From positions 17,522 to 81,521 of IMG/VR virus record IMGVR_UViG_3300012007_000014: a stretch of DNA of 64,000 bases. One strand, given 5' to 3'. Both the position numbers and the translations under genes were made by a program. The stretch's first letter is position 1; each line of letters starts with the position of its first letter. Of the stretch, positions 33,301 to 55,139 are shown piece after piece. Under the pieces are notes generated by a model that did no database searches, had not been told where the DNA came from, and worked only from the letters and a program-made list of their open reading frames with translations. The stretch is from a virus. Taxonomy: Duplodnaviria > Caudoviricetes.

Positions 33301-36300
33301 CTAAGAACAGAGATAGCAACGCTCATTCCAATTAAGGATAGAGATAAAAGTCCAATCGATGCTGCTATCTGTATGGTTAAGTCATTAAAGGCATTAACAA
33401 CTGCCTTTAATCCTATGAAAATAACGACAACTGCAGCAATTGAACCTGCAAGTTGTCCAAGAAATGCAACAATTCCTCCAACCTCTCCAAATAATGCTTG
33501 AAGAGCTTTTATATGAGCGAATATCAATCCTCCAATAACAGTCATCTCTTGCATAAAGAGTCCTGCCTGCACAACTATAATCTTAATTGCCATATTCATA
33601 AAGACAATAGAAGCTGCAAGAGCTGCAATGCCAGCTGCCATTTTGAGCATGGAAATAGAAGCCTGTGAAATCTTATCAGAAAACTTAGCAAACGTTGCCA
33701 TCACGACAATAAGTGCTGCAAATCCAGCTGCCAAGATTCCAACTGGAACGACAATTCTTGCAAGGAACTCCTGCCAAGTTTGAATGTGATTGTAGAGCAC
33801 ATTTACAGCAACTGTAGTAACACCAAGCTCAATGCCAAGAACTGCAAGTACACCAGCAAAGGAAGTCATGGCAAGTGTAAAAGCACCAAGACCCTTGGTA
33901 TTAACCTTTCTAGAAAGAACCGTTGTCAAATATGCAAGAGCTGCTGCACAACCAGTGATTGTGATAGTAAGACGAGCAATCGTTGCTGCTGCTCTTTCAA
34001 ACCGTTCCGGATCAATTTGAACAACAGAAAGTGCAATGAGTGCTGCTGTAAGAATACCAACGCCAATTGCAATGTTTCTAAATGTCTTTGCACCATTAAT
34101 TGCTGTGAGCTGTACGAAATATCCTCTAATTGCACCAAGAGTCTTCTTTAAAGAACCTCCAAGTGTATCAAAAGCATCACCAAATGTCTGGAAGGAATCT
34201 GTTAACTTCTTTAAGTAACGAATAAACAGCAAGATATATCCAAAGGCAAGGATCTGCTGCCAATCCATTTCATTTATCTTAGTAATAAACTTTCCGACAA
34301 GAGTGTCAGTTTGCCCAGCAGCTTTCACAGCATTACTTGCATTTAGTGCAAAAGACTTAAGAGTTTCAACAATTGTGGCAAAGATTGATTGACTCTTTTG
34401 GAGTGCGGGGGTTGTCTTCTCAATCTTCTTTCCAAGAGCACCCATCTTATCTGCAGAAGCACCAATAGTATCTCCAAAGGATCCAACTGTTTCGGAGTGC
34501 TTAGAGAACTTGTTTATAATTGAAGATATGGAAGATTTTACATTGTTAATTGCATCATTTAAGCTAATCTCTCCTTTTGCAAGAGAGAAAATAGATTTCA
34601 CAAAGGAAGAGATTGCTGTTCCAGCGATGAGAAGACCTCTTGCTATTGTTCCAAAAATATCATTTGAACTTGCAAGTTTTGTGATAAAACTTACAATACT
34701 ATCTTTCATCTGAATAATAACAGTGACAATTGCAGAAAGATTCTTTTTAACCCCATTCCAATCAATGGATTTAATCTTCTGAATGAGTAAAGAGATACCA
34801 ATAATTGCAGCTCCAACTACTGTCTGAAGAACTGCTGCAGCAACTCTAAGACCTTTCACAATTCCTTGGATAACTTTAGAAGAAGAAAGTTTCTTTATAA
34901 TTGGCTCTACCTTTTGAATAAGAGAGCTAATTACAGAAGATACTCCTCCAACTGCTTCTCCTGTATCCTTAAAGCTCTTATTAAGTCCAAGAACTGTTTT
35001 TAACAAATTGAAGGATAAGATAATCTTAAATAATGAGATAATTGTATTAAGGCCAAGTCCTCCCATAAACAAAGACTGCAATGCTTTAATAGCAGTCGTG
35101 ATAAGAAGGAAGGACATAATCGGTTTTCTAAAAGCAAGGATTACTTCAAGACCCGTTTTAATAATAGAGAACGTTGTCTTAGCAACTTCCTTGAGATCCG
35201 CCATTTGATCCTTGGTAAGGATAAGGTTTCTAGTAAAGCGCTCAATAAAGTCTGTAATAGCCATGAGTCCTTTTGCAGAGTTTACAGATCCTTGAACATA
35301 CCCTGTCACCTCTTGCAAAGCCTCTCCTATTGGCTTTAAAACACTCCAAATCGCATTGAAAATATTAGCAATGGATTGGAGCATCTCCTTTCTTCCACCC
35401 TCTGCTTTCCAGACAGCAAGCATAGAGTTTCTAAAGTCAGACACTTTATTGATGGCATTTCCTAAAATGTTAGAGATTCCAGTCCAAAGCCCTTTTGCCT
35501 CTTCGAAATCACCAATGACAGTTCTAAAACTCTGTGTCCATCCAGATCCAATTGCTTCTCCAAGGGTGTCCACCAACATGGAAAATGTTTTGACATCTTT
35601 TGCGGCATCAGCAGCTTTCATTCCAAGTTGCTCAAACTGCTTTATTTGAGTAGCAGTAAATCCTTGAGCTTTAAGTCTCTTCTCATAATTCTCTTGCTCT
35701 ACTTTTGTTAAATCTCTTATGTCTGTTGCATAAAGTTTAAGAGCAGTTGTCAGGGTATCATTGGTAAGCCATTGATATTGAAGAGAATCATTAAAACCTT
35801 TCTGAGCATTGAAGAGTTCTGAAATATCACCCTTCATGTTCGTTGTTACGGTTCTGTAACCACCACTAACTTTCTTAACTGTACCAAGTGCTTCTGCTGT
35901 TTGAAGGAGCGTATTCTTAAACTCTACGGTAGCCATCATAGAGTTCTCAATAGATTTCCAGTCGATGAGTTTTGTATAACCAGAAGACAGTGCCTGAGCA
36001 AAGTTATACATAGCATGAGAAGCTTGTTGTGCATTTGCTCCAGAGATAGCGGCCTCATTAGCAATACCTTTAATGGCAGCCACTGCATCATCAAGTTTAA
36101 CTCCCTGATTCGTAAATTTACCGATATTGGAAGTCATATCTTGAAACTTATAGATGGTATCATCTGAGTATTTGTTTAACTCATCAAGCTTTTTATTTAC
36201 TCTTTCAACAGATTCTCCTGTTCCAGCCATAATGGTTTGAACAGATCCCATCATGTCTTCGTATTCCTTGAAGCCTTCTCTTGGACCAGACGTGATCATG

Positions 36301-36611
36301 GAGAGTCCTTTATGGACGAAGCTGCTTACGGAATTTCCAATATTACGAAGAACTTGATCAGAAATTGTACCAAGTGTAGAAAACTTTTTGGTCATGACAT
36401 CAAGAGAACTATTCATTTGATCAAAAGAAGAGTTCGCCTTGGATAACTGACCTTCCATTCCAGAGAACATCTCTTTTCCAGTTTTCTTGGTGTTCTCTTC
36501 AATGGTATCGTTTAATTTATTTAGAGATTGCAGAGTTTCCTGAATACCAGCTTCGAATTGTTTGTTATCGAATTGCATCTGCACAACTCTTTGATCAACT
36601 TGTGTTGCCAT
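27318..36611 (-). CDS. Tape measure protein (3097 aa)
   Basis: Tape-measure domain (LNKYSDDTIYKFQDMT..IGKF..QG), long Ala/hydrophobic helical region, position. Confidence 0.93.
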   Translation of the reverse strand: MATQVDQRVVQMQFDNKQFEAGIQETLQSLNKLNDTIEENTKKTGKEMFSGMEGQLSKANSSFDQMNSSLDVMTKKFSTLGTISDQVLRNIGNSVSSFVHKGLSMITSGPREGFKEYEDMMGSVQTIMAGTGESVERVNKKLDELNKYSDDTIYKFQDMTSNIGKFTNQGVKLDDAVAAIKGIANEAAISGANAQQASHAMYNFAQALSSGYTKLIDWKSIENSMMATVEFKNTLLQTAEALGTVKKVSGGYRTVTTNMKGDISELFNAQKGFNDSLQYQWLTNDTLTTALKLYATDIRDLTKVEQENYEKRLKAQGFTATQIKQFEQLGMKAADAAKDVKTFSMLVDTLGEAIGSGWTQSFRTVIGDFEEAKGLWTGISNILGNAINKVSDFRNSMLAVWKAEGGRKEMLQSIANIFNAIWSVLKPIGEALQEVTGYVQGSVNSAKGLMAITDFIERFTRNLILTKDQMADLKEVAKTTFSIIKTGLEVILAFRKPIMSFLLITTAIKALQSLFMGGLGLNTIISLFKIILSFNLLKTVLGLNKSFKDTGEAVGGVSSVISSLIQKVEPIIKKLSSSKVIQGIVKGLRVAAAVLQTVVGAAIIGISLLIQKIKSIDWNGVKKNLSAIVTVIIQMKDSIVSFITKLASSNDIFGTIARGLLIAGTAISSFVKSIFSLAKGEISLNDAINNVKSSISSIINKFSKHSETVGSFGDTIGASADKMGALGKKIEKTTPALQKSQSIFATIVETLKSFALNASNAVKAAGQTDTLVGKFITKINEMDWQQILAFGYILLFIRYLKKLTDSFQTFGDAFDTLGGSLKKTLGAIRGYFVQLTAINGAKTFRNIAIGVGILTAALIALSVVQIDPERFERAAATIARLTITITGCAAALAYLTTVLSRKVNTKGLGAFTLAMTSFAGVLAVLGIELGVTTVAVNVLYNHIQTWQEFLARIVVPVGILAAGFAALIVVMATFAKFSDKISQASISMLKMAAGIAALAASIVFMNMAIKIIVVQAGLFMQEMTVIGGLIFAHIKALQALFGEVGGIVAFLGQLAGSIAAVVVIFIGLKAVVNAFNDLTIQIAASIGLLSLSLIGMSVAISVLSTQLGNPIKALQGLGIALLGLVGVLTVLSIFAFSAGVPTLKSIATSLLALSGAFIIFAAAVTLFGKADFFTIGKGLLIMAGGMFAAAWSIKIMNGAEVGKIAGTMLALAGAMYILAPIMAIMGALWKPMAAGLALVAGMMISLAFSVKLMDKAKPLNVIPIVGVMLLAIQMMGKMAINLAALPMDQSIAAAAEIAGMMLALGLAIKIVGDVTKDMKGLDIVAFIATIGSFSVAIYAMSQIVTALAGLQNVDAAITIAESLSMMMLAMSASIALIANIVQGFTALDIGAFAVTVLSFSGAVAILSLALVLVAQIPAQDLLGVALALNATMAVFAICMSVMMTIGQNMSAIASLGISVMMIAFAGAVAILAVSMTMLAQIPADRLTQVAIVIGVLMGIMVALTAVVGIFGTGLSLATPAILAFAAVILSIAAAFVGFGAGAALFGVGIMLITKGIAALLPQVTAFVTAMAALSDQAGSLALMAGALTLLGLSLIAIGAGGGIAGVGLLIFAAGLGAVLLVIVSVAEQVAGFLISLKEVSEEAAQWGMDLAQKLADGISAGIDLVKNAASSIASAIASFLHFSTPDEGPLANSDSWMPDFTSMLAGGLEAGVPKVKAASSDIASSIADTLNPKDGAKLGENFGSATASGVASTSDDAQNAGQEVGSAASEGVTEGADAENTGKSNMLELVKGVISGEVPASTAMENFGSMAKDKLSGAFDGNGTGGSMISELTSGIASGDISLAGITGGNIGDLMGSSFLSNILGYVSSARAAMSSLDLGYVGAGTGTEGEISFRTGTKKNNGAKHWTKGKWVMQKDPKTGKMKRVYQKGSWESGAKNDSGLPFSWSDFASKGDSKTGSPSTTPDLGGSGGGDSGSKKKGKGSGGGSKSAKDNTRALEEFQNTLEKFNERAIPIINKFTSSFGSMMSTVSDSTSYQIGAEGFELLLSEIYKTSNKADEVYEDSEEKGTALQQRANAIREAFVEAFNKISDAIKGSLDFYTEFDKKTSDMIKPDKLIMNAKSQVDALRESTDALTSLAYRGVDDDTLADLGSNPLENYQKIMELRQMSNSELKDFLGYQAKAEKLAQEATVRVENARMVALYLNKMKEDGLKTYEELDGMTKAYVDTLREENKVKAMGIALDSDAYDHSGLEKAYGELKKYADAAGMSLSDLYGYLHQTIDSTNILKTVIISDVQEAYTQFDNAMSKLSEYESKAKAFGSAMKDAIEGFGGAFESLDISSNVTGKQLLSNLEKRVAGIKDYQLEILSLRQRGLNQEALQELISQGQGTVIAAGKMGDEWIKKVNDNYKDYKEALKVSAKKQDLFEKYSLWVEKNTNKEYQNEIKNAENAKKKITQLNKEYQNLNLTAAQMDEEATKAADHAVSNIAGSMDDGKDAVKVAGKELGETAVSSFKDSVENVTNVLGESMDLGESGIFGNAIDGIGDVSNEFLMAALNYQDFIAQVGPDNDTARQAFDDLATAAQNYGITEEQLGAILEDRTTIQDALTNNIVKNFDKVFKKATESSKLVEQFKLTANEVGDAIKSVLDNTNLYAELSDKQDQISGDELITRMRGNLDKAEKELQNYLALEAKGLNSGLLEQLAEQGPEYLAAATQWTSDQVSSANAMYERATTIGDDAKAKASQQWLDAGTMNGQTYQQALSAAMSDVNALATTVQTMVTNFSTVIDPALISMGTEAAALFGQSIQAALSNDTETISQTSQTTASTIATNMATGLQTGYQENEAAVANASKGIADKATSEIDKKVNSSEGSKNGKDYASSMVKSVEAQEGNMFNAGSNLMQGLIDGINSKKEEFDALCNEIATELSSTVASMNQIHSPSRVMFKLGQFMDEGYIRGLDSSSDRISEVANNIGSIVGSALDADLGANPTITPVVDYSNIYASQGLISSMYNGSYGINLNPNLGNVTTPKDSELNRLNGMFGRISNGDVVSAITSLREDVVNLGNAVSKMQIVLDSGEIAGAVTNGVSQNINNAVGRRESVWA

Positions 36612-42526: not shown

Positions 42527-42820
42527 TTAGGATACACCTCCCATACTAAGAGCAATTGCAGACTCAAGATCTGAAATTCTCTGTCTTAAAATATCAGTTG
42601 ATGTGAAGTTACCGAAGATCACATGGTCCTTACCATCTTCCATAAAGTGCGCGACTACCTTATCGAAATTTGTGGTAACGCCATCAATCTTCATGTTCTT
42701 AATTGTATCGTTTGTAAAGGCGTCACTAGGAACTACAGTATCAAAAATATAATTATTTCCGTTTAATGTAGCTTCGTATGACTTTCCATTACTAAGTACA
42801 ATTGTATGCTTCTCTTCCAT
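42527..42820 (-). CDS. Hypothetical protein
   Basis: LSNG......LNGNNY; GGAGG RBS inside RT 3' end. Confidence 0.6.
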   Translation of the reverse strand: MEEKHTIVLSNGKSYEATLNGNNYIFDTVVPSDAFTNDTIKNMKIDGVTTNFDKVVAHFMEDGKDHVIFGNFTSTDILRQRISDLESAIALSMGGVS

Positions 42821-43889
42821 AAGCACCTCCATATAGAGTGAAAGCATGTGCAAATTGTTCGCTATAAAGGTTGTATAGATTACAAAGTGTTCTTTTGGAG
42901 AGGATCTTTTTAAATGACATTATCCAAGATTTAAATGCATTCTCTACATCTTTGAAACTCATTCTTCCTTGTATGCAGAGCACAAATTGTTTCTTAAGTC
43001 TTCGTCTAAATGAAGAAATTCTTTTTGGATTCATGCGCTTGCAAAGATGACCTGATTTTGAGAGTCTGTAGCGAATCTGTAAGAAAGTAAACCCTCTAGA
43101 TAGCTTATAAATATGTGTTTTACGAGTATTGACGTGAATACCAAGTTTGTTTGCAACAAGAATAGCTTTCTTCAAGAGAGACTTTAGAAACTCTTTTGAC
43201 TTATGAACAATGCAAGAATCATCCATATATCTATCATAGTTTCTAATATGTTTTACAACTTTAAAGAACGTATCCCAAATTGTAGGAAAATAAACTCCAA
43301 ATATCTGAGAACATTGATCTCCTATTCCGCATGATATTGGCTTACTATTAATTTCAAAGTTCTTAAGAATTGTTTTGATAAGCCAAATACAATCGGCATC
43401 AGTTAAATGCTTTTTCACTTGTTCCAATAGCTTATCATGTGGTATGGAATCATAATACTTCTTGAAGTCAATGATTAGGATATACCCATCATTTCCATGA
43501 TTCTTTCTGTAAAACTCATGGATCTTCTGCTCAAATCTACGTCTTGTGAATCCGATTCCTTTCCCTCTTACAGAAGCACCATTGTCATGAATGAGATATG
43601 GGTATAAAGCTGGTTCTAAGACATAATCACAAAAGCATCTTCGTATGACTCTATCATAGAATGGATTGCTTCTAATATATCTTATCTTTCCGCGCTCTCT
43701 TATTGTGAATTCTTTTCCTTTTCTTGGCTTATAAGTCTTTTCTTCAAGCTCTTGTCTTGTTTTTACAATATTAATAAGCCAATTTTGCTCGTAAATTTGA
43801 ACGGAAGACTTCCAATCTGAGCCATTTTTAGACTTTTTGTAGGAATCATAGAGATGATTTAAATCTGTAAGTTCACTATATCCCTCCAT
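42792..43889 (-). CDS. DGR reverse transcriptase
   Basis: RGK.R.I, DRV, GKG, DFKKYYDSIPH, GIGDQCSQ (DGR-type SQ), RYMDD; adjacent TR and avd. Confidence 0.95.
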   Translation of the reverse strand: MEGYSELTDLNHLYDSYKKSKNGSDWKSSVQIYEQNWLINIVKTRQELEEKTYKPRKGKEFTIRERGKIRYIRSNPFYDRVIRRCFCDYVLEPALYPYLIHDNGASVRGKGIGFTRRRFEQKIHEFYRKNHGNDGYILIIDFKKYYDSIPHDKLLEQVKKHLTDADCIWLIKTILKNFEINSKPISCGIGDQCSQIFGVYFPTIWDTFFKVVKHIRNYDRYMDDSCIVHKSKEFLKSLLKKAILVANKLGIHVNTRKTHIYKLSRGFTFLQIRYRLSKSGHLCKRMNPKRISSFRRRLKKQFVLCIQGRMSFKDVENAFKSWIMSFKKILSKRTLCNLYNLYSEQFAHAFTLYGGAYGREAYNCT

Positions 43890-44069
43890 AAACAATAATT
43901 CCTTTATATTTATTAGCCTTAAATTAGAGTGGAAATTAGTCGGCTAGAGATAACAGACGTATCTGATCTCATCTAATATGGAGATATTCTCCACCCACTC
44001 CTTTATTTCTCCATTTAGCTGGAAGGGACTAAATCTCCTTCTCCTGATCCATTTCTGAACCAAAAGAAT

Positions 44070-44159
44070 CCCAAAACGCTGTTCCAAGTATTCGAAGCGT
44101 TGTTCCTATTCGCGTTACCATTGTTGTTGACATTCGCAAAGTTAGATGCTGACACAACG
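44070..44159 (-). repeat. DGR template repeat (TR)
   Basis: AAC/AAT-rich; 71/90 identical to VR 44786-44875; 17 of 19 mismatches at TR adenines. Confidence 0.96.
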
Positions 44160-44174
44160 GAAAAGTTTACAGAT

Positions 44175-44675
44175 CTAGCCCACAGGAAAGTAAACTCCTT
44201 GCTTTTCCTGATTTTTCTTTAACTTTCTAAATTGTTGTAAATCTTTGTTTTTAATCGAACGAAGTAAGTCAATTTCTTTGACAATCAGTTGGGTAAGCCG
44301 ATAATACTTATTAATATTTACGTCTATATTTTGAGCACGAGAAGTTTCTATAAAAGTCATACAGACTTGTTCCAATTTATAGCAAGCCGCAATTGCTTTT
44401 ATTAATTGTTCTCTTCTATACTTCAGATCAATGTCCGTTACAACCTTGCAGCATCCAGCATTAGAAACTCTAAGATGAAGTTCTCTTACTTGTTTATACA
44501 TATCGTCTCTTGCAAGTGTGATATAATTGATAAAGACCTGAGGGTAATTGCGTGCTTTTGCTGTATCAATACCTAAATCAGTAAGGACGTAATTTAATAA
44601 TTCATTCTTGATCTGGTGAGTTACATGAAACGCTTCGTTACAAGATGGTTTCCTCTCACCTTTCTTAACACTCAT
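44175..44675 (-). CDS. avd: DGR accessory variability determinant (four-helix bundle)
   Basis: MSV.K.ER start, all-helical basic 166 aa, position between target and TR. Confidence 0.8.
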   Translation of the reverse strand: MSVKKGERKPSCNEAFHVTHQIKNELLNYVLTDLGIDTAKARNYPQVFINYITLARDDMYKQVRELHLRVSNAGCCKVVTDIDLKYRREQLIKAIAACYKLEQVCMTFIETSRAQNIDVNINKYYRLTQLIVKEIDLLRSIKNKDLQQFRKLKKNQEKQGVYFPVG

Positions 44676-44725
44676 TGTTATCTCCTATTGTTCTGCCCGA
44701 TAATATCAGAATAGGCTGAAAACGG

Positions 44726-44757
44726 CCTCGCTTCGCTCGGATCGCTGCGTACGCAGC
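44726..44757 (-). promoter_or_regulatory. DGR target-recognition hairpins downstream of VR
   Basis: Palindrome GCTGCGTACGCAGC (44744-44757) and CCGAGCGAAGCGAGG (44726-44740). Confidence 0.7.
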
Positions 44758-44766
44758 TCGTAATTT

Positions 44767-45645
44767 TTAATGGATCAGGTAGTAGCCCAAAACGCCGTAC
44801 CAAGTAAACGAAGCGTAGTACCTATACGCGCCACCATAGTAGTCGACACCCGCGAAGTCAGACGCCGACACGACGTCTCTTAACCAAATACTTATTTTTC
44901 TATTCATACTTGACTGATCAAACTTAAAAAGTGCAATCTGATTCTTCGAGCATCCAGTATTATATAGACCTGCTCCAGCATTATTTGCGCCGTTTACAAC
45001 AGTCCCATAATACATTGCTTCGTTGAAGATGTTATAAATTGTGTCTACCCATTCACCACCAGTAGGAACACCATCTGTAACAGCATTTGAAATGTACTCT
45101 CTATGTTTTAAAAGATGATTTCCAAATGCTGTAGTAATATCGGGAAGAATCTGATTTGGAATTGTAGTATTCCACATCTTTGAACCCTTAAATCCACCAG
45201 CAGTGGTATCGGTATCATTCATGAAATGCGTAGTTGATCCATCTGCAGTAAGATCTACACCATCGTCAACCATTAAAAGGTGATGACCTAATTCGACGTT
45301 ATCTCCACAATGAATGAAGTAATCGATATCACCAATGCGTCTTGTCTTTCCATTAATCACCCAGTAATCACCAACATACATATCTGTAAAGGTGCCATTC
45401 TGTACTGCTTGTGACTGCTCGGTTGTGAAAGAAGTTCCAAGATTCTTTCCTCGATAGATCATTCTATGAGAAATTGCAGGAGGGCAAAGCTCCATGATTG
45501 CCCTAAGATCTGCTGCCTTTGCAGCGACATTGTCCTGAAACTTCGATACTGGCATTCTTCTAAGTCCTGAAGTAGCTCCTGTAATCAGGACACTATCATC
45601 CGAATTAAACCCGCTAGTTGATGGATAATTGTTTACTTGACTCAT
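44767..45645 (-). CDS. DGR target protein, C-type lectin fold, probable receptor-binding tail protein
   Basis: VGDYW..NG, GG..GS.M, WLRDVVS...A.V....G.A...AS....GV; VR at C-terminus. Confidence 0.9.
   Translation of the reverse strand: MSQVNNYPSTSGFNSDDSVLITGATSGLRRMPVSKFQDNVAAKAADLRAIMELCPPAISHRMIYRGKNLGTSFTTEQSQAVQNGTFTDMYVGDYWVINGKTRRIGDIDYFIHCGDNVELGHHLLMVDDGVDLTADGSTTHFMNDTDTTAGGFKGSKMWNTTIPNQILPDITTAFGNHLLKHREYISNAVTDGVPTGGEWVDTIYNIFNEAMYYGTVVNGANNAGAGLYNTGCSKNQIALFKFDQSSMNRKISIWLRDVVSASDFAGVDYYGGAYRYYASFTWYGVLGYYLIH
44786..44875 (-). repeat. DGR variable repeat (VR)
   Basis: Adenine-specific variant of TR; encodes VVSASDFAGVDYYGGAYRYYASFTWYGVLG. Confidence 0.96.
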
Positions 45646-48070: not shown

Positions 48071-48373
48071 TCAATCGTGAAGTATCTTAATATTGTAATA
48101 TTTGCAAGCATCATGCTCAATCTTGCAGCCACGATGCTCGTTCCAATGATCTGCAAAATAAGCTGCATCAGCTGTGGATAACAGTTCAAGCGATTTTGCT
48201 AAAAACCATAATGGATTAGCATGATGCGGGGCTTGTCTAAAGAAACTATCGACTATCACAACATCGTCATCAGGTATCATTGTGTTTAATTCTTGCGTGA
48301 TTGCGTTGCGTTCTGCAATAATCACTTCATCGGACCTGCTGCCCATTGGCTGTGATATAAATACTTTAACCAT
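48071..48373 (-). CDS. DUF4406 / nucleoside 2-deoxyribosyltransferase-fold protein
   Basis: KVFISQPM...LELL..ADA.YF...W...RGC.IE. Confidence 0.7.
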   Translation of the reverse strand: MVKVFISQPMGSRSDEVIIAERNAITQELNTMIPDDDVVIVDSFFRQAPHHANPLWFLAKSLELLSTADAAYFADHWNEHRGCKIEHDACKYYNIKILHD

Positions 48374-48389
48374 TGGATTCCTCTAAGCC

Positions 48390-49175
48390 TCAATTTTTGA
48401 GTGCAGAAAGATAGGTCTTATTTCCTTCTTTCTTACAAGCATATCCTGTGCCCTTATCTGTTACGACATACAGCCAAGTGTTACCTTCTGTGTCGTACTT
48501 GTAGTACCCATACCAAGTAACAACATCATTCTTATGAAGAACACTAATAATGCTTGCACCCATCTTTCCATCAGAACGAAGCATTAAGGAGCTGCAAGAA
48601 ACCTTAAACCGTTTTCCAAATTTTGCAGAGGCATCTTTATAAGTCTTTCCTGCTACCGGTTTGGTTGTCGTTGGCTGCGTCGTAGTTCCAACATATCGCA
48701 AGACCTTGTTCCAGGGATAGTTTCTGTAATTCCTAATGAGAAACTCTTTTCCAGTCTGATCTCCAGTAAGTCTTCCCACAACGGTTCCACGCTCATCAAT
48801 GGAGGCTTCCACTTCTTTTCCATTGCCACAGAACATTGCAGTGTGATGTTTCAGATTTAAAAGAACGTCACCTCTTTGAAGGCCTCTTCCAGTCTTTAAA
48901 TCAACTTCTGCAGTCACGTCCTTAAACCCACACTTCTTAAATGCACCAAGCATATTGCCAGTATAAGAAGCGCCGTTTGCCTTTACAGGAACACCATTTG
49001 TCTGCCATGCTGTAATGACTGCCGAAGAACAGTCATAGTCAGGCCCCCAACGATGTACCTGGGAATATCCATGAGAATTATCTCTTGCCGTTTTCTCCAT
49101 CCAGGAGATAGCAGCTTCAATTGTCTGTTGTGTCGTCATTATAAACTTCTCCTGATTCAGAATTGGTTTTGCCAC
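48390..49175 (-). CDS. Endolysin: NlpC/P60-type catalytic domain plus SH3b-like binding domain
   Basis: GYSQ..RWGPDYDCSS, GDVLL...HHTAM; C-terminal LMLRSDG...WLYV. Confidence 0.88.
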   Translation of the reverse strand: MAKPILNQEKFIMTTQQTIEAAISWMEKTARDNSHGYSQVHRWGPDYDCSSAVITAWQTNGVPVKANGASYTGNMLGAFKKCGFKDVTAEVDLKTGRGLQRGDVLLNLKHHTAMFCGNGKEVEASIDERGTVVGRLTGDQTGKEFLIRNYRNYPWNKVLRYVGTTTQPTTTKPVAGKTYKDASAKFGKRFKVSCSSLMLRSDGKMGASIISVLHKNDVVTWYGYYKYDTEGNTWLYVVTDKGTGYACKKEGNKTYLSALKN

Positions 49176-50009: not shown

Positions 50010-52064
50010 TCAGGCGCCAGTTCCAGCAGCCTTCACAGGCTTGTAGTAGAACGTGATTGCAGACAGAGGCTTAACAAGAGCACCGGACATACGAGTCTCA
50101 TACAGGCAGATCTGTGTATTCGTGTTCAGGTCGAAATCATCGAAGAAGTCGGTCTTTGCACCGCCATTTGTACCAACATTGTAATCTGCAAGGTTGACAT
50201 CAACACCTGCGACATCGTACTTGGTCTTGGTAGAGCCATCATCACCAGTGACCTCAATCTGAAGGCCATCCATAACCTCAATCGGCTGAACAGTGGAGAC
50301 TCTCATTGCAGTTGCAACCTCAGCCTCAGACTTGTACATCCGCTCTCCAATACCATTCTCAAGAAGCAGAACGTTGGTAAGCTCATCCTCCTTGGTGTAG
50401 AAGGTCATGTTGCCAGAGCCCTTGTACTGCTTTCTAGCCTTGAGCTGTGCCTTCAGCAGAGCCTTTGCCTTCTGATCGTCGGTTGCGTTCTCAGGAATCT
50501 CAACAGGGAACTTAATGGTGTAGAGATCAGAGTCATTGAAGACAGGGCGAATATTCTCTTCCTTAATCTTGTCCTCATCAGATGCAAGACGACCATCACC
50601 GATCAGGATTGCTCTTGCAATCTCCTCACGAAGCATGACCTGCATCTCAGCCTTAACCCAAGCGACCACATCGAACTCAGTGATGTCATCGATGTCATCC
50701 TTGTCGAGCTTCTGCTTCTTATAGATGGTCTGTGGAGGCGTCACACGCTTTAAGAGAGAGAAGACCTCCTCCTTCTTAAGCTTTCCCTTAATGTAGCCCT
50801 TTGCTCTTGCCTCATCCTCGGTGATGTTTGCAAGAACACTCTTCACACGAGAGAACGGAGTCTTGTGAACAGAAGACAGAACCTTGTCCACCCAGCCCGT
50901 ATCTCTCTTAATGAACTCGGGCTTGTCGCCAACCATCTTTGCCTCAGGGAAGAGATAGTCGATGTTCTCAATGCCATAAGTCTGGTCACCATGAGCGATC
51001 GACTCATCATCGCCGTAATACTCATCAAACGCCTGGCTAAGCTTGCCAGTTCTCTGGGTGAGCTCCATGATGTTCGTCATATCATCATGAGAAATGTACT
51101 CTCTACCCTCATCTGCTGCGCCATAATCCTCAAATACATTGTGCTTCACGTTATCATCCTCCTCATCGGATTCTTCATCTGCAGTTTCAAGTGCCTTACC
51201 AATCAGAAAATCAACAACCTTCTTCTGCTTGGGTGTTAATGTGTTGATGACATCCTCGACGGTCTCATCTTCCTCGTCGTCCTCGTCGTCTTCATCATCC
51301 TCAGCATGCTCTACGTCGTCCTCATCGTCATAATCATCTGAGTCGTCGTAGTCATCCTCATCATCTTCGTCATCATCGTAATCGTAATCGTCATCATCCT
51401 CTGCGTGCTCGACGTCCTCATCCTCGTCTTCGTCGTCAGCCTCATCAGAAGTAATCTGACTAATAATGATGGCAACAGCTTTCTTCTGCTTATCAGTTAA
51501 GGTATCAAATACGTCCTTAACAGTCTCCTCGTCGTCATCTTCATTGTCAGCGGGAGACTTTCTTCTCGTATCTTCCTTTGCCATGTCTTCTTCCTCACTT
51601 GCATCTGCATGATAAATCTCAGGTGCACCAAAGCCCCAAATTTCTGCCTCATCATCTGAAATATCACCATGCTCCAATACTGTATCAATTCTTGCTTCTG
51701 GATCAGCACCACCAATTACTAGCGATACTTCCTTGATCACTCCATGAAGAATATCTCCTCCTCTCCTAATAAGCTTATTGGCCCAAATAGAAAGGGAATT
51801 AATATCTCCATTTCGAAGAAGCTCTTTTGCAGTCTGTCCACCTTCTGTATCGTTGAAATATCCATCAACTCTGGTACCTCCAGGGACACAATGCAAAATT
51901 GCATGACCAAGCACCTGTCCTACTTCATCGTGATTGTGCATATAACAAAGTGGGACCTGCTCGCCATCCTGTTGATCAAAGCAGCCGTCTCGTATCGTTG
52001 TGCCGTCCGAGCAGAGAACATTGGACTTACTAGCCCATCCCTGAAAATCAGGTTTCCTCATCGT
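50010..52064 (-). CDS. Fused prohead protease - acidic scaffold - major capsid protein
   Basis: HK97-type protease motifs (MHNH, SLSIWA, EVSLV..GADP.A), D/E linker, capsid domain (KTPFSRVKS, TPPQTIYKKQKLD, ETRMSGAL); strong codon bias. Confidence 0.92.
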   Translation of the reverse strand, partial: TMRKPDFQGWASKSNVLCSDGTTIRDGCFDQQDGEQVPLCYMHNHDEVGQVLGHAILHCVPGGTRVDGYFNDTEGGQTAKELLRNGDINSLSIWANKLIRRGGDILHGVIKEVSLVIGGADPEARIDTVLEHGDISDDEAEIWGFGAPEIYHADASEEEDMAKEDTRRKSPADNEDDDEETVKDVFDTLTDKQKKAVAIIISQITSDEADDEDEDEDVEHAEDDDDYDYDDDEDDEDDYDDSDDYDDEDDVEHAEDDEDDEDDEEDETVEDVINTLTPKQKKVVDFLIGKALETADEESDEEDDNVKHNVFEDYGAADEGREYISHDDMTNIMELTQRTGKLSQAFDEYYGDDESIAHGDQTYGIENIDYLFPEAKMVGDKPEFIKRDTGWVDKVLSSVHKTPFSRVKSVLANITEDEARAKGYIKGKLKKEEVFSLLKRVTPPQTIYKKQKLDKDDIDDITEFDVVAWVKAEMQVMLREEIARAILIGDGRLASDEDKIKEENIRPVFNDSDLYTIKFPVEIPENATDDQKAKALLKAQLKARKQYKGSGNMTFYTKEDELTNVLLLENGIGERMYKSEAEVATAMRVSTVQPIEVMDGLQIEVTGDDGSTKTKYDVAGVDVNLADYNVGTNGGAKTDFFDDFDLNTNTQICLYETRMSGALVKPLSAITFYYKPVKAAGTGA

Positions 52065-53382
52065 CATATCCTCCACTATTTAGTGCATCCAAGATATCTT
52101 GTACATAATCATCATTTTGCCTTGTATCTGCACCATCATTTTGAGAGTCTTCGTCTCCTCCCGTATTCTGCTCAACCGTCGCACTAGATTGAGTGATGTT
52201 AGGATTGGATAAAGTCTCAGCCTGTTGTGCATCTGAAGGTTTCAGTCCGATTTCTGCTCGGATCTCATTGGATGTCATGATTTCATTACGTCTAAACTTG
52301 TCGGCAATATCAGCAAGCTGACTGACAGGAACAAGCTTGAAAGGATCTCTAAAGAAGACAATAGACTGTCCCTGAGATCTTGCTGTTCTAGATAAGAACT
52401 TTCGCTTAAACTCATCACAAATGACAGAACAGATCGGTGCAATCGTATTGTTGTAGTAATTAATCATTACTGCTTCATTTGCTGATCCATCCATTACGCC
52501 TTGAGTTAAACCAAGCTGGTTATAGAGCTGGGTTGTTAAATCTTTCACCTGATCCCAAAGATTGTTTTCAAGTGAGCGATTAAGCTGAATGATTCTTTCT
52601 GTACCATCCGCCCAAGCAACACCATATCTAGAGCCCTCAAGCTGCTCTGTTAATTCCTTCCGTCTCTGATTGGCAATCTCTTTTCGCTGTTCACTCTTTA
52701 CTGCATAAGGAAGCTGAATAATAAGATCAAGCTTACCTGCTGCTGACTGTTCGTTTAACTGATCCAGTTTTGCAATTGTCCTTTGAAGGCGTTTTAGTGT
52801 AGAGTTTGGTTCATTCATGATAGAATAGAACGGATTCTCAATCACTGCCACAGAGGACTTAGGAAGCCGCAAATCTTGATAGTTTCCTGTTCGCTCATTG
52901 TAAAGATGAACAACTACTTCAGAAGGGTACCAACCAACAATTCTTCCAACCTTTAGCCTTTGGATCATCCATTGCTCAGATAGTCTTGTAGGATCAAAGT
53001 CAGTATCGGTAGGAACCACTGCAACACAACCCTCATCAAACATTGATTGGACAATATCCTGAAGGAGAGCTTTGCCAGTTTGATCTGTGTTTGCTTCGGT
53101 GTTTAGACAATAATTAAGACCAGAATCGACGTTTTCAATAAACGATCCATTCTCATCAACTTTGCAATGCTCAAACCGAATGGATGAGACATCAATTGCA
53201 ATTCTGTTATAAACAGATGCAACAATGGTTCTTTGAGAGGTGTTTACGAAATGCATTCGATCTGGTCTTGACGAATAACCCATGTACGGCTGGTTATTAG
53301 TGCCATCGTTTCTAATCTCCTGGGTCGGATCTCTTCCGAGGAAGGCATTCCAGCCCGATTTTATTCGTTGGACAATTCCCAT
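52048..53382 (-). CDS. Portal protein
   Basis: YNRIA.DV, EAN.DQT, IENPFY..MNEPNSTL, LDLIIQLPY, DPFKLVP; after terL. Confidence 0.92.
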   Translation of the reverse strand: MGIVQRIKSGWNAFLGRDPTQEIRNDGTNNQPYMGYSSRPDRMHFVNTSQRTIVASVYNRIAIDVSSIRFEHCKVDENGSFIENVDSGLNYCLNTEANTDQTGKALLQDIVQSMFDEGCVAVVPTDTDFDPTRLSEQWMIQRLKVGRIVGWYPSEVVVHLYNERTGNYQDLRLPKSSVAVIENPFYSIMNEPNSTLKRLQRTIAKLDQLNEQSAAGKLDLIIQLPYAVKSEQRKEIANQRRKELTEQLEGSRYGVAWADGTERIIQLNRSLENNLWDQVKDLTTQLYNQLGLTQGVMDGSANEAVMINYYNNTIAPICSVICDEFKRKFLSRTARSQGQSIVFFRDPFKLVPVSQLADIADKFRRNEIMTSNEIRAEIGLKPSDAQQAETLSNPNITQSSATVEQNTGGDEDSQNDGADTRQNDDYVQDILDALNSGGYDDEET

Positions 53383-55139
53383 CAGTCAAAACTCTCCTTG
53401 TTTAGTTTGAAAGCTACAAAAGCATCCATCAGTGCTGCAACAGCATCGATCTTTGCTTCATAACTCTTTTTCATAAGCTTCTTATTCCCATTGGTGTCTT
53501 GGATAACAATACAGTTACCCATTGTGTAAGAGAATAGTTTTTCATCAAATATCAGTAATCTTTGCTCTGCAAGCTTTTTCAATTCTGTCAGAGGAACAGA
53601 TTCTGTCTTAGATCCCTGAATCACTTTTTCAACACCGAACTCTCCATTTTCTGTGCACCAGCGTTGGATGAATTCCTTGGCATTGTAGGGGTCATATCCT
53701 AAACATCTCACGTCATATTTATTCGTTTGAATATGCTTATCAAGATCATCATAAACATCTTGCATATCCAAATTCGTACCAGGCATGACAACAAGCGATC
53801 CTTCTGCCATGAACTCTTCATACTTTTGTCGCATAGCAGCGGGAAGTTGTGACATCGTGTATTCTGAAATGTAATCAATTGTTTTAATCCCAAATCGTCC
53901 ACCTGATAAAGGGAACAAGAATGTGAAAGAACAGAAGTCACCACCTTGAGATAAGTCACATCCAATCGAGCAGGGCATTCCAGTATAGTCTTGGTAATGG
54001 AATGGTTTAATCTCCTCATAAGTAAAGAAGTAGGTATAGCCTTCCATTGGAATGCCGAATCGTTTTGCTAGAATATCATTTCGATCAATCGGGTTATGTT
54101 CTGCTTTTTCTACATCAAGTTGATATGTTTCATAAGAAACAGTCTTACCAAGATTCGGATTTGCTTTCAGCCACATTTGCGGATTGTTCACTTCAGTTAC
54201 ATCATCAAGTTTGTACCAAAAGATAGATACATGAGGATTGTAATAATCCCCTTTTAAGATAGAAGACAACTCCATTTTGATCGTGTCACCAACACCATTT
54301 CTTACGGTTCCCTCTGAGGAAACAGCAATGATGAGAAAGCCATCAATCTTTGCACAACCCTGCTCCAATGCAGTAATTGGACTCTCTCTTATGTCTCCTG
54401 AAAGCCACTCATCGACGGTTGCTATTTTGTCTCCTCGACCCTGAAGCTTATCAATTGACATCGGACAGAATTCGATTAGAGAATTGGTGATAAAGTTTTG
54501 GATGCCTTTCTTTGTTGCTGCTAGTTTCAACTTATTCCTGGAAGAACCGGTTGTGTTATTGATCGATCCTTCTGTTAAAAATGTAAACAATGGCCCACGC
54601 GATCTTGTAATAGCAGTTCTAATGTAAGCAATTGTCTCATTCCCCTGCCTTTCTGTTGGAGCTGTAATGCATTGCTGCGTCGTAGTGGTATCAACGGTAA
54701 GACCATATGATTGGAAGCAAGCTTCATATCCAGTCTTTGAAGCTCCTCGTCCAACAATTAAATATTGATGGTCGACAAGACGCTTCTTTACTTTTCTGTT
54801 TTCGTATCCACCTCTCCCACCGCCATAGTGGTTTGGGTTCCAAACAGTACGATCTGTAAAGTAATACCAACCTAAGATCTCTTCTCCCCAAAGCTTGTAG
54901 GAGTCGAGCATAAAAAAGTCTGAGCCATCTCTTAGAGTTAGCTCAGATTCACAAAACTCAATCCAACCCTCAACAGGAGCGGGATCGTAATAAAATCTAG
55001 GATCTTTAATAAGAGCATCGATCCTATTCATCTCCATGGAAATCTCTTTACAAACTGGAATCTCTCCTCGTAGTACCTTGCTTCTAAACTCTCCGTAATA
55101 TTTTGGGGTTGCGGTGTTAGAGAGCATCGCTCTTGTCAC
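53382..55139 (-). CDS. terL: Terminase large subunit
   Basis: Walker A VGRGASKT, Walker B VDEW, nuclease CDLSQGGDF, YDPYNA, KIDAVAALMD. Confidence 0.95.
   Translation of the reverse strand: MTRAMLSNTATPKYYGEFRSKVLRGEIPVCKEISMEMNRIDALIKDPRFYYDPAPVEGWIEFCESELTLRDGSDFFMLDSYKLWGEEILGWYYFTDRTVWNPNHYGGGRGGYENRKVKKRLVDHQYLIVGRGASKTGYEACFQSYGLTVDTTTTQQCITAPTERQGNETIAYIRTAITRSRGPLFTFLTEGSINNTTGSSRNKLKLAATKKGIQNFITNSLIEFCPMSIDKLQGRGDKIATVDEWLSGDIRESPITALEQGCAKIDGFLIIAVSSEGTVRNGVGDTIKMELSSILKGDYYNPHVSIFWYKLDDVTEVNNPQMWLKANPNLGKTVSYETYQLDVEKAEHNPIDRNDILAKRFGIPMEGYTYFFTYEEIKPFHYQDYTGMPCSIGCDLSQGGDFCSFTFLFPLSGGRFGIKTIDYISEYTMSQLPAAMRQKYEEFMAEGSLVVMPGTNLDMQDVYDDLDKHIQTNKYDVRCLGYDPYNAKEFIQRWCTENGEFGVEKVIQGSKTESVPLTELKKLAEQRLLIFDEKLFSYTMGNCIVIQDTNGNKKLMKKSYEAKIDAVAALMDAFVAFKLNKESFD

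What the first reader, a model, noticed from the sequence alone, without database searches (positions are those of the whole stretch)
50985..51690. All seven histidines in the capsid precursor linker lie in one motif: a His-directed maturation signal
Between the protease and capsid domains the His contexts are VLEH-G, EIYH-A, DVEH-A (twice), NVKH-N, YISH-D and SIAH-G. All 7 of 7 have I/L/V at -2 and a small or acidic residue at +1, and the capsid domain proper has no such site. The last site sits at the predicted start of the mature capsid (GDQTYGIENIDYLFP). By analogy to T4 gp21 ([ILV]-x-E), this suggests a prohead protease cleaving after [ILV]-x-His, an unusual P1 specificity.
Basis: partly seen in the sequence, partly recalled or inferred. 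Interest (0 to 1): 0.88.

Follow-up and report, generated by a model that had tools for sequence, protein, structure and literature searches.

The report
His-marked cut sites in protease-capsid fusion
A phage gene that fuses the head-maturation protease to the capsid protein has a short histidine-centred motif at each place where the protein should be cut; the motif is kept across a very large phage family, so it probably marks an undescribed "cut after histidine" specificity, though no cutting has been measured.

Summary
ORF 50010-52076 (-) is an HK97-type (S78) prohead protease, an acidic linker and an HK97-fold capsid protein in one frame. All 7 linker His have I/L/V at -2 (P about 8e-7; 0 of 200,000 shuffles).

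The pattern is not peculiar to this phage. In 151 representatives under 50% identical to one another, four of the His columns are nearly invariant (151, 148, 138 and 133 of 151). The consensus is [LIVMF]-x-H-[ASG]-[DE]. Of 1,035 linker His, 88% have a hydrophobic residue at -2, against 11-26% for any other residue and 29% for capsid-domain His. Every member has such a site 10-43 residues before the capsid N-arm, in 149 of 151. By structural superposition this is where the mature HK97, T5 and D3 capsid proteins begin. HK97's own known cut (F-N-K|S) uses the same frame.

One correction: H312 (VKHNVF) is not such a site. It is residue 3 of a conserved nested start. In the window this is GGAGGAT, 6 nt, then GTG. 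In relatives a start codon sits there in 51 of 53 loci. The nested start would give a capsid precursor without the protease.

Cleavage after His is therefore well supported by comparison but is not shown biochemically. I found no paper that describes it. I class it as a new variant of a known kind.

The parts
50010..52076 (-). Protease-linker-capsid fusion ORF, 688 codons counted from GTG 52076. The likely real start is ATG 52059-52061 (residue 6), which follows GGAGGAT plus 6 nt. Residue numbers in this report count from 52076.
   Evidence: PHROG 3270 at E 9e-187. [quoted passage not shown]
51678..52040 (-). S78 (HK97-type) prohead serine protease domain, residues 13-133. Catalytic His47 is at 51936-51938 and Ser96 at 51789-51791.
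   Evidence: Pfam PF04586 at E 2.8e-4, 21.5 bits against a cut-off of 21. hhalign of the family profile against HK97 gp4 gives 94.9% probability, E 4e-8, with H47 aligned to gp4 H65 and S96 to gp4 S114. H47 and S96 are invariant in 124 sequences. AF2 pLDDT is about 97.
51663..51677 (-). Site 1, L-E-H136|G-D, three residues after the last strand of the protease domain. Proposed self-release cut.
   Evidence: His is present in 151 of 151 representatives. P3 is I/L/F/V/M in 150 of 151. P1' is S/G/A/D in 145. P2' is D/E in 125. pLDDT falls from residue 137.
51603..51617 (-). Site 2, I-Y-H156|A-D, in the disordered acidic linker.
   Evidence: His in 138 of 151 representatives; P3 is L/I/V/F/M in all 138. 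It lies in the pLDDT<50 segment 137-181.
51399..51413 (-). Site 3, V-E-H224|A-E, in the poly-Asp/Glu stretch. It is one of two duplicated copies.
   Evidence: It lies in the pLDDT<50 segment 214-269. It is kept in close relatives although the acidic run around it gains and loses residues.
51300..51314 (-). Site 4, V-E-H257|A-E, the second duplicated copy. Four close relatives (P0016, P0018, P0020, P0021) lack it.
   Evidence: The column has His in 62 of the 71 representatives that have a residue there.
51441..51530 (-). Helical module 1 (EETVKDVFDTLTDKQKKAVAIIISQI...). It is conserved and scaffold-like, and its function is not known.
   Evidence: AF2 helices at 186-190 and 195-210. Family consensus is TVxDVxxxxxExQKxxV. 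The module is repeated 2-3 times in relatives.
51174..51272 (-). Helical module 2 (DETVEDVINTLTPKQKKVVDFLIGKALE), a duplicate of module 1.
   Evidence: AF2 helices at 273-277 and 282-301.
51147..51164 (-). Nested translation start. The Shine-Dalgarno sequence GAGGAGGA is at 51157-51164. After an 8-nt spacer counted from GGAGG, GTG sits at 51147-51149 (codon 310). The predicted product is a 379-aa capsid precursor without the protease, beginning M-K-H-N-V-F.
   Evidence: the same GGAGGAT plus 6 nt as at the gene's own likely start. In relatives the codon is ATG 41, GTG 8, TTG 2 of 53. All 8 Val are GTG and both Leu are TTG, whereas at control positions GTG makes 10 of 88 Val codons and TTG 11 of 115 Leu codons. 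An SD-like word is present in 51 of 53, against 84 of 325 controls. With a looser pattern it is 75 of 75.
51129..51149 (-). V-K-H312-N-V-F-E, the seventh 'site' of the finding. I read it as the N-terminus of the nested product, not a cleavage-type site.
   Evidence: The consensus M-K-H-N-V-F-[DE] differs from the other sites: P1' is N, P2' is V, P3' is F. His occupies this position in only 49 of 75 loci; the rest have R, T, N, K and others. The Met and the N-V-F stay conserved.
51081..51095 (-). Site 5, I-S-H330|D-D, at the N-terminal cap of the propeptide helix.
   Evidence: His in 133 of 151 representatives. P3 is L in 112, I in 14, M in 4. P1' is S/D/A in 114..
51015..51089 (-). Propeptide helices 330-343 and 346-354 (family consensus ...GSLKxA...), a short delta-domain-like segment between sites 5 and 6.
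   Evidence: AF2; consensus.
50985..50999 (-). Site 6, I-A-H362|G-D, the proposed final maturation cut. The predicted mature N-terminus is G363 (GDQTYGIENIDYLFPE).
   Evidence: His in 148 of 151 representatives; two of the three exceptions are alignment slips with L-E-H|G or I-C-H|G next door. All 151 have a Phi-x-H-small site upstream of the LFP motif, at 10-43 residues in 149. It lies in the pLDDT<50 segment 358-364. In the superposition, model residue 378 aligns with HK97 117, T5 176 and D3 126, which puts their mature starts (104, 160, 114) at model residues 365, 362 and 366.
50013..50990 (-). Predicted mature HK97-fold major capsid protein, residues 363-688 (326 aa).
   Evidence: Foldseek E down to 2.5e-12 against phage capsids. 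VIA-align Z 16-17 against GTA, HK97, T7 and Kp9 capsids over model residues 378-681.

Best explanation
The gene encodes an HK97-type (S78) serine prohead protease, an acidic and partly helical linker, a short propeptide, and an HK97-fold capsid protein, all in one frame.

Proposed mechanism:
- Two products are made: the full-length fusion, and a protease-less capsid precursor from a nested SD plus GTG at codon 310. This is inferred from sequence conservation.
- Both co-assemble into the prohead, so the protease is carried inside as part of some subunits (inferred).
- The protease then cuts after His in the motif [LIVMF]-x-H|[ASG]-[DE], with P3 hydrophobic, P1 His, P1' small and P2' acidic.
- The cuts fall at the end of its own domain (H136), at several places in the acidic linker (H156, H224, H257), inside the propeptide (H330), and just before the capsid N-arm (H362).
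- This chops the linker into small acidic peptides that can leave the shell, and leaves a 326-residue mature capsid protein starting at G363.

Shown here: the motif, its conservation across the family, its positions relative to the folded domains, and the protease family with its catalytic residues. Inferred: that the motif is cut, that the bond cut is the one after His, and that the nested start is used.
For: (1) In the window protein, 7 of 7 linker His have I/L/V at -2 (P about 8e-7; 0 of 200,000 shuffles).

(2) In 151 representatives under 50% identical to one another, His is kept at the columns of H136 (151), H362 (148), H156 (138) and H330 (133), inside otherwise poorly conserved acidic sequence. 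Each has the same flanks.

(3) Of 1,035 linker His, 88% have LIVMF at -2, against 11-26% for the other 19 residues. 76% have A/S/G/D at +1, against 24-40%. 71% have both, against 3-10%. Capsid-domain His sit at background: 29%, 21% and 7%.

(4) Every representative has a site just upstream of the N-arm LFP motif, with modal spacings of 10 and 14 residues. After structural superposition this position matches the mature N-termini of HK97 (S104), T5 pb8 (160) and D3 (114; PMC12749128) to within 1-4 residues.

(5) Five of the six sites lie in or at the edge of pLDDT<50 segments. The sixth caps a helix.

(6) Only this ORF in the 64-kb window has the full motif, and it has it six times.

(7) The protease profile aligns to HK97 gp4 with the catalytic His and Ser matched. 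HK97's established cut in gp5 is F-N-K|S, the same frame of hydrophobic P3 and small P1' (sequence checked; the cut position is from the literature). T4, phiKZ and SPN3US proteases likewise read x-X-E| with several sites per propeptide (PMC5694885).

(8) In close relatives (90-98% identity) the acidic runs gain and lose residues while VEHAE, ISHDD and IAH[AG]D stay.

(9) One divergent member (P0247) has Gln in place of His at two sites in the same frame, L-Q-Q|S-A and L-F-Q|A-A, as expected of a P1 position.

(10) Characterised phages show the same layout: 1706 gp10 has VLKH|AITNIDV, ReqiPepy6 has ALKH|GIEDIDV, Circum has VLAH|AQEYGIE.
Against: - No biochemical datum exists. No N-terminal sequence, mass-spectrometry neo-terminus or solved capsid of any family member was found. 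The ReqiPepy6 paper and the HK97 protease paper could not be read.
- Conservation shows that the motif is functional, not that it is cleaved, and does not show which bond is cut.
- Three protease-domain His (H58, H62, H111) fit the loose pattern and are presumably not substrates, so sequence alone is not sufficient.
- His at P1 has no precedent that I know of among prohead proteases.
- The Pfam S78 hit on the window protein alone is marginal (21.5 bits against a cut-off of 21).
Confidence: 0.6

Rival explanations
1. The motif is the protease's recognition element, but the scissile bond is not the one after His. It could be one residue later, after the small residue, or before His. His would then be P2, P1' or an exosite contact rather than P1.
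For: Conservation alone cannot place the bond. P1' (A/S/G) and P2' (D/E) are also well conserved. The superposition locates the mature N-terminus only to within about 4 residues.
Against: His is the most conserved position of the motif, as P1 usually is. The frame of a hydrophobic residue two positions before and a small residue right after is that of HK97 F-N-K|S, and of T4 and herpesvirus proteases (established knowledge). Gln replaces His at two sites in P0247.
Confidence: 0.12
2. The His motifs are not cleavage sites. They would be functional contacts of a scaffold-like linker: metal- or pH-sensitive His switches, or docking peptides that bind the capsid interior or the portal. Processing, if any, would occur elsewhere.
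For: The motifs are repeated His in a strongly acidic, disordered linker beside conserved helical modules whose function is not known. No cleavage has been measured.
Against: A docking or metal site would not be expected to sit exactly at both domain borders in every member (H136 in 151 of 151; the last site 10-43 residues before the N-arm in 149 of 151). Nor would it need a small residue at +1. Copy number ranges from 1 to 10 per protein, which suits redundant cut sites better than a defined binding geometry. The gene carries an intact protease with invariant catalytic residues, which needs substrates, and no other recurrent motif is present.
Confidence: 0.15
3. The pattern is a by-product of composition or of the internal duplication and has no function.
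For: Two of the seven sites are duplicates. The linker is of low complexity.
Against: 0 of 200,000 shuffles reproduce it. The His columns are kept across 151 representatives under 50% identical to one another, and only His among the 20 residues shows the flanking bias.
Confidence: 0.01
4. The sites are cut by a host protease rather than by the fused phage protease.
For: Some phages, such as Staphylococcus 80alpha, use a host enzyme to trim capsid and scaffold proteins (established knowledge).
Against: The motif is the same in phages of Actinobacteria, Lactococcus, Faecalibacterium and gut metagenomes. It always travels with the fused S78 domain, whose catalytic residues are invariant.
Confidence: 0.03

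Closest known systems
HK97 gp4 protease and gp5 capsid protein (MEROPS S78; delta domain removed by a cut at K103|S104)
   Same: The protease family is the same: profile-profile 94.9%, with catalytic His and Ser aligned. The capsid fold is the same, Z 16.1. An N-terminal propeptide is removed just before the N-arm. The site frame is the same, with hydrophobic P3 and small P1' (F-N-K|S). By my own count the HK97 delta domain holds four Phi-x-K-[AS] matches, against one in the mature part.
   Different: Here the protease and capsid protein are one ORF. P1 would be His rather than Lys. The linker is acidic and largely disordered rather than a 102-residue coiled-coil delta domain. The motif is far more stereotyped: 88% of linker His fit, against 4 of 13 delta-domain Lys in HK97.
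[quoted passage not shown]
   Same: These are direct homologues at 33-48% identity over 73-89% of the length, in the same PHROG 3270. They carry the same sites.
   Different: The papers I could read note only that the fusion exists (PMC5513430; bioRxiv 10.1101/2020.01.10.891226). None describes a cleavage motif, a mature N-terminus or a nested start.
T4 gp21 ([L/I]-x-E|), and the phiKZ and SPN3US prohead proteases ([S/A/G]-x-E| and A-x-E|)
   Same: A three-residue code ends in one fixed P1 residue. Several sites per propeptide break it into small pieces. The protease cleaves its own C-terminal part (PMC5694885).
   Different: They belong to a different protease family (S77). P1 is Glu. The protease is a separate gene. 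In those phages many head proteins carry the motif, whereas here only the fusion protein does within the window.
Nested protease-scaffold genes: herpesvirus UL26/UL26.5, lambda C/Nu3, and Gifsy-2-type tripartite head genes
   Same: One reading frame gives a long product with the protease and a shorter in-frame product without it, which sets the ratio of enzyme to structural subunit.
   Different: Here the shorter product would be the capsid precursor itself rather than a scaffold. The start is inferred only from conservation of the SD and start codon. Earlier notes of this scan report similar nested starts in other fusion families and in one relative of this family.

Membership tests
Peptidase S78 (HK97-type prohead serine protease) | Sequence or profile similarity to the family model and to its founder, HK97 gp4 | tested here: met
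   PF04586 at E 2.8e-4, 21.5 bits against a cut-off of 21, on residues 13-97. hhalign of the 124-sequence profile against HK97 gp4 gives 94.9% probability, E 4e-8, over 122 columns. Many homologues carry precomputed PF04586 hits.
Peptidase S78 (HK97-type prohead serine protease) | Catalytic His and Ser present at the positions of gp4 His65 and Ser114 | tested here: met
   H47 aligns with gp4 H65 and S96 with gp4 S114. Both are invariant in 124 sequences.
Peptidase S78 (HK97-type prohead serine protease) | Proteolytic activity on the capsid precursor | not testable with these tools
   No biochemical data were found. The complex prediction gave no verdict.
HK97-fold major capsid protein | HK97 fold (N-arm, P-domain, A-domain, E-loop) | tested here: met
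   The AF2 model has pLDDT above 90 over most of 378-681. Foldseek gives E 1e-11 to HK97 1ohg_A. VIA-align gives Z 16.1, rmsd 4.0 over 254 residues to 1ohg_A, and Z 17.0 to the GTA capsid. Pfam PF05065 was not hit by the window protein itself but is on record for relatives.
Prohead-protease cleavage motifs of the type x-X-P1| (T4, phiKZ, HK97) | A short motif with one fixed residue, recurring in propeptide or linker and absent from the mature domains | tested here: met
Prohead-protease cleavage motifs of the type x-X-P1| (T4, phiKZ, HK97) | Demonstrated cleavage C-terminal to the fixed residue | not testable with these tools
   This needs Edman sequencing or mass spectrometry of virions or expressed protein.
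Nested (internal-start) protease and structural-protein genes | Conserved in-frame start codon with a ribosome-binding site inside the long ORF | tested here: met
   Window: GGAGGAT plus 6 nt plus GTG, identical in form to the ORF's own likely start. Relatives: 51 of 53 have a start codon and 51 of 53 have an SD-like word, against 26% at control sites. With a looser pattern, 75 of 75.
Nested (internal-start) protease and structural-protein genes | Two protein products observed | not testable with these tools
   This needs a Western blot, mass spectrometry or ribosome profiling.

The most novel reading that the evidence does not exclude
A very large clade of tailed phages shares two undescribed features. 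The clade includes 244 isolated phages of Arthrobacter, Gordonia, Streptomyces, Rhodococcus, Microbacterium, Lactococcus and Faecalibacterium, and thousands of metagenomic relatives. First, its S78 prohead protease cuts specifically after histidine, at [LIVMF]-x-H|[ASG]-[DE], a P1 specificity not described for any capsid-maturation protease. Second, its fused protease-capsid gene makes a second, protease-less capsid precursor from a conserved nested start, which would set the dose of protease per prohead.
Probability: 0.5. Interest if true: 0.72.

Novelty: new variant of a known kind. Interest (0 to 1): 0.62.

Why it matters
The specificity of HK97-type (S78) prohead proteases is known for very few phages. 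A simple sequence rule would have four uses.
- It would allow the mature capsid N-terminus to be predicted for thousands of phages. [quoted passage not shown]
- It would give structural biologists the correct construct boundaries.
- It would add a His-specific serine protease with a short, portable recognition tag to the enzymology of viral proteases.
- It would help explain how a 1:1 gene fusion avoids overloading the prohead with protease, namely through the nested start.

The prediction can be tested directly with one mass-spectrometry run on any isolated family member.

Tried and rejected
- **Split relatives.** Capsid-only relatives that begin MKHNVF first looked like natural split genes. 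All three contigs I inspected are artefacts. L001 and L002 have N-runs inside the gene, and L002 also has a duplicated segment. L004 has two frameshifts in a long-read contig. I therefore do not claim natural split forms.
- **Complex prediction.** I submitted the protease domain (1-135) with residues 310-400. The result was no verdict (score 0.00), which is no evidence either way.
- **Solved structures by sequence.** No relative was found in the PDB, so no experimentally defined mature N-terminus is available for the family.
- **Literature.** Seven full-text searches found no cleavage data for this family. The ReqiPepy6 paper (PMC3020559) and the HK97 protease paper (PMC3709472) are not held. 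The 1706 paper (Garneau 2008) did not turn up in the library searches and I did not request it by id.
- **D3.** I considered D3 as a second S78 comparator, but its protease is annotated as ClpP-like. I used it only for the position of the mature N-terminus.
- **Pfam scan of the alignment.** hhalign of the family profile against HK97 gp5 was not significant (0.5%), so the capsid relationship rests on fold comparison.
- **Model coordinates.** These could not be read, so I could not check whether any site is modelled in the active site.
Full report
**What is there**

The finding lies in one minus-strand ORF, window 50010-52076 (688 codons counted from GTG 52076). It sits directly downstream of a large terminase gene (53382-55139) and a portal gene (52048-53382), and upstream of head-tail genes. 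The ORF's likely real start is ATG 52059-52061, which follows GGAGGAT plus 6 nt; relatives are 680-683 residues long.

Pfam places an S78 'Caudovirus prohead serine protease' at residues 13-97. The hit is marginal (E 2.8e-4, 21.5 bits against a cut-off of 21). PHROG 3270 covers the rest of the protein at E 9e-187. A family profile aligns to HK97 gp4 at 94.9% probability, with H47 on gp4 His65 and S96 on gp4 Ser114. Both residues are invariant in 124 sequences.

An AlphaFold2 model built on that alignment has mean pLDDT 81. It shows:
- a compact protease domain, residues 10-133;
- disordered stretches at 137-181, 214-269, 303-322 and 358-364;
- two copies of a helical module, 186-210 and 273-301;
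- two short propeptide helices, 330-354;
- an HK97-fold capsid domain (Foldseek E about 1e-11 to HK97; VIA-align Z 16-17 over model residues 378-681).

Homologues occur in 244 isolated phages of Arthrobacter, Gordonia, Streptomyces, Rhodococcus, Microbacterium, Curtobacterium, Lactococcus (1706 group), Faecalibacterium and Bifidobacterium. [quoted passage not shown] There are also thousands of metagenomic proteins.

**The observation**

The protein has 13 His. All seven have L, I or V at -2. I/L/V make up 13.6% of that stretch, so the chance value is about 8e-7, or about 6e-6 if the duplicated VEHAE is counted once. None of 200,000 shuffles reached 7 of 7. The single capsid-domain His (SSVH-K) does not fit.

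Two qualifications apply. H58, H62 and H111 in the protease domain also fit the loose pattern, but they lie in high-confidence beta-strands. And the +1 residue of H312 is Asn. Among all minus-strand ORFs of 60 aa or more in the window, the fuller motif [LIVMF]-x-H-[ASGD]-[DE] occurs only in this ORF, six times.

**Is it more than a quirk of one protein?**

An exhaustive search returned 1,408 cluster representatives. I aligned the best 150 with the window protein.

| Column | His in 151 representatives |
|---|---|
| H136 | 151 |
| H362 | 148 (two of the three exceptions are alignment slips with L-E-H\|G or I-C-H\|G beside them) |
| H156 | 138 |
| H330 | 133 |

Each of these columns has the same flanks: L/I/V/M/F at -2, A/S/G(/D) at +1, and mostly D/E at +2.

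Counting every residue in the linker regions gives 1,035 His, about 6.9 per protein:

| Feature | Linker His | Other 19 residues in the linker | Capsid-domain His |
|---|---|---|---|
| LIVMF at -2 | 88% | 11-26% | 29% |
| A/S/G/D at +1 | 76% | 24-40% | 21% |
| Both | 71% | 3-10% | 7% |

His is also three times more frequent in the linker than in the capsid domain.

All 151 proteins have such a site upstream of the nearly invariant L-F-P of the N-arm. In 149 it lies 10-43 residues before it, with modal spacings of 10 (H|GIxxΦxxLFP) and 14 (H|AxxYGIxNIDxLFP).

In relatives 90-98% identical to the window protein, the poly-Asp/Glu runs gain and lose residues freely while VEHAE, ISHDD and IAH[AG]D persist. 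More distant relatives add further modules, each with its own Φ-x-H|A. Characterised phages show the same layout: 1706 gp10 VLKH|AITNIDV, ReqiPepy6 ALKH|GIEDIDV, Circum VLAH|AQEYGIE.

**One of the seven is something else**

H312 (N-V-K-H-N-V-F-E) has a different consensus, M-K-H-N-V-F-[DE].

Capsid-only gene calls beginning MKHNVF suggested natural split genes. The three contigs I inspected are assembly artefacts: N-runs in two and frameshifts in a long-read contig.

The DNA shows what the element is. In 53 loci carrying the x-x-H-N-Φ-F pattern, the codon two positions before the His is ATG in 41, GTG in 8 and TTG in 2. All eight Val are GTG and both Leu are TTG. At the hydrophobic positions of the cleavage-type sites, GTG makes only 10 of 88 Val codons and TTG 11 of 115 Leu codons. 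An SD-like word lies 4-18 nt upstream in 51 of 53, against 84 of 325 at the control sites, which sit in the same acidic context. With a looser pattern the SD-like word is present in 75 of 75, and the residue at the H312 position is His in only 49 of 75.

In the window the sequence is GAGGAGGATGATAAC-GTG. That is GGAGGAT plus 6 nt plus a start codon, exactly as at the ORF's own likely start.

I therefore read H312 as residue 3 of a nested product: a 379-residue capsid precursor without the protease. Earlier notes of this scan flagged nested starts in other fusion families and in one relative of this family. I tested the idea here independently.

**How it most likely works**

The six remaining His sites have the anatomy of a prohead-protease code.
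- One residue is fixed, with a hydrophobic residue two positions before it and a small residue after it.
- The motif is repeated in a disordered linker or propeptide.
- It is absent from the mature domain.
- One copy sits at each domain border.

The final site (I-A-H362|G-D) lies where mature capsid proteins begin. In the superposition, model residue 378 aligns with HK97 residue 117, T5 pb8 residue 176 and D3 residue 126. Their mature N-termini are S104 and residue 160 (both from established knowledge) and residue 114 (PMC12749128). These map to model residues 365, 362 and 366.

HK97's own cut, checked in its sequence, is F-N-K|S. That is the same frame with Lys in place of His. The HK97 delta domain holds four Φ-x-K-[AS] matches, against one in the mature part.

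T4, phiKZ and SPN3US proteases read x-X-E|. They use several sites per propeptide, and the protease trims its own C-terminal part (PMC5694885).

One divergent family member has Gln for His at two sites in the same frame.

Taken together, the best reading is this. Full-length and nested products co-assemble into the prohead. The tethered protease cuts after His at H136, H156, H224, H257, H330 and H362. The acidic fragments leave the shell. The mature capsid protein starts at G363.

Shown: the motif, its conservation, its placement, and the enzyme family. Inferred: the cleavage, the exact bond, and the use of the nested start.

**Rivals**

| Reading | Confidence |
|---|---|
| Recognition motif with a different scissile bond | 0.12 |
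| Non-proteolytic His contacts (metal, pH or docking) | 0.15 |
| Cleavage by a host protease | 0.03 |
| Chance or composition | 0.01 |

The border placement in every member, the small P1' residue, the variable copy number (1-10 per protein) and the invariant catalytic residues all argue for cleavage sites. Only protein chemistry can settle it.

**Novelty**

The fusion itself is known and is annotated in hundreds of genomes (PMC5513430; bioRxiv 10.1101/2020.01.10.891226). I found no description of a cleavage motif, a mature N-terminus or a nested start for this family. No relative has a solved structure by sequence search. Key older papers (ReqiPepy6 and the HK97 protease; Garneau 2008 on 1706 was not retrieved either) could not be read, so prior N-terminal data cannot be excluded. 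I class the finding as a new variant of a known kind: a prohead-protease code with His at P1, in an S78 enzyme fused to its substrate.

Noticed in passing
window 42792-45645: A diversity-generating retroelement. A reverse-transcriptase ORF lies at 42792-43895 (-) (PHROG 1423, E 6e-64). A 95-nt template repeat lies at 44065-44159. A 78%-identical variable repeat lies at 44781-44875, at the 3' end of ORF 44767-45645 (-). The mismatches fall mostly at template T on the + strand, which is A on the coding strand.
   Followed up: partly
window 51147-51164 (and 75 related loci): A conserved nested SD plus start codon inside the protease-capsid ORF. It would give a protease-less capsid precursor beginning M-K-H-N-V-F. 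This is worth a report of its own.
   Followed up: yes
window 51939-52076: The public gene call for this protein (P0014, 643 aa) starts at Met46 and so cuts off the first third of the protease domain. Relatives and the SD point to ATG 52059-52061 as the start.
   Followed up: partly
L001 3348-5068; L002 1629-3559; L004 1824-3586: Apparent 'split' protease and capsid genes in metagenome contigs are assembly artefacts. Two have N-runs, one of them with a duplicated segment, and one long-read contig has homopolymer frameshifts. Capsid-only entries of this family in protein databases should be treated with care.
   Followed up: yes
window 51744-51746 (H111), 51891-51905 (H58, H62): Protease-domain His also sit in Phi-x-H-small contexts. 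V-x-H111-G is kept in 136 of 151 relatives and its Gly is invariant. I did not resolve whether this is an active-site feature (a third catalytic residue?) or a late self-destruction site.
   Followed up: no
window 51174-51272 and 51441-51530: A duplicated helical module (ETVxDVxxTLTxKQKKxV...) is conserved across the family and repeated 1-3 times. Its function is not known; it may be a scaffold-like or capsid-binding element.
   Followed up: no
L088 1029-2183 (HK97 gp5): The HK97 delta domain contains four Phi-x-K-[AS] matches: IQK|A at 9, LTK|S at 52, LIK|S at 87, and the known FNK|S at 103. The mature domain has one. This hints that the multiple cuts in the delta domain follow the same frame.
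   Followed up: partly
window 27318-36611: A single 3,097-codon ORF on the minus strand lies downstream of the head module. It may be a tail or tape-measure-like giant protein. I did not examine it.
   Followed up: no
window 48071-49175: Two ORFs sit between the head-tail connector genes and the following structural genes: a nucleoside 2-deoxyribosyltransferase-like ORF (48071-48373; PHROG 355, E 1e-12) and a 261-aa ORF of an unnamed PHROG (48390-49175).
   Followed up: no
P0247 (representative): A divergent family member has Gln instead of His at two of the conserved sites (L-Q-Q|S-A and L-F-Q|A-A). It could serve as a natural specificity variant for comparison.
   Followed up: partly
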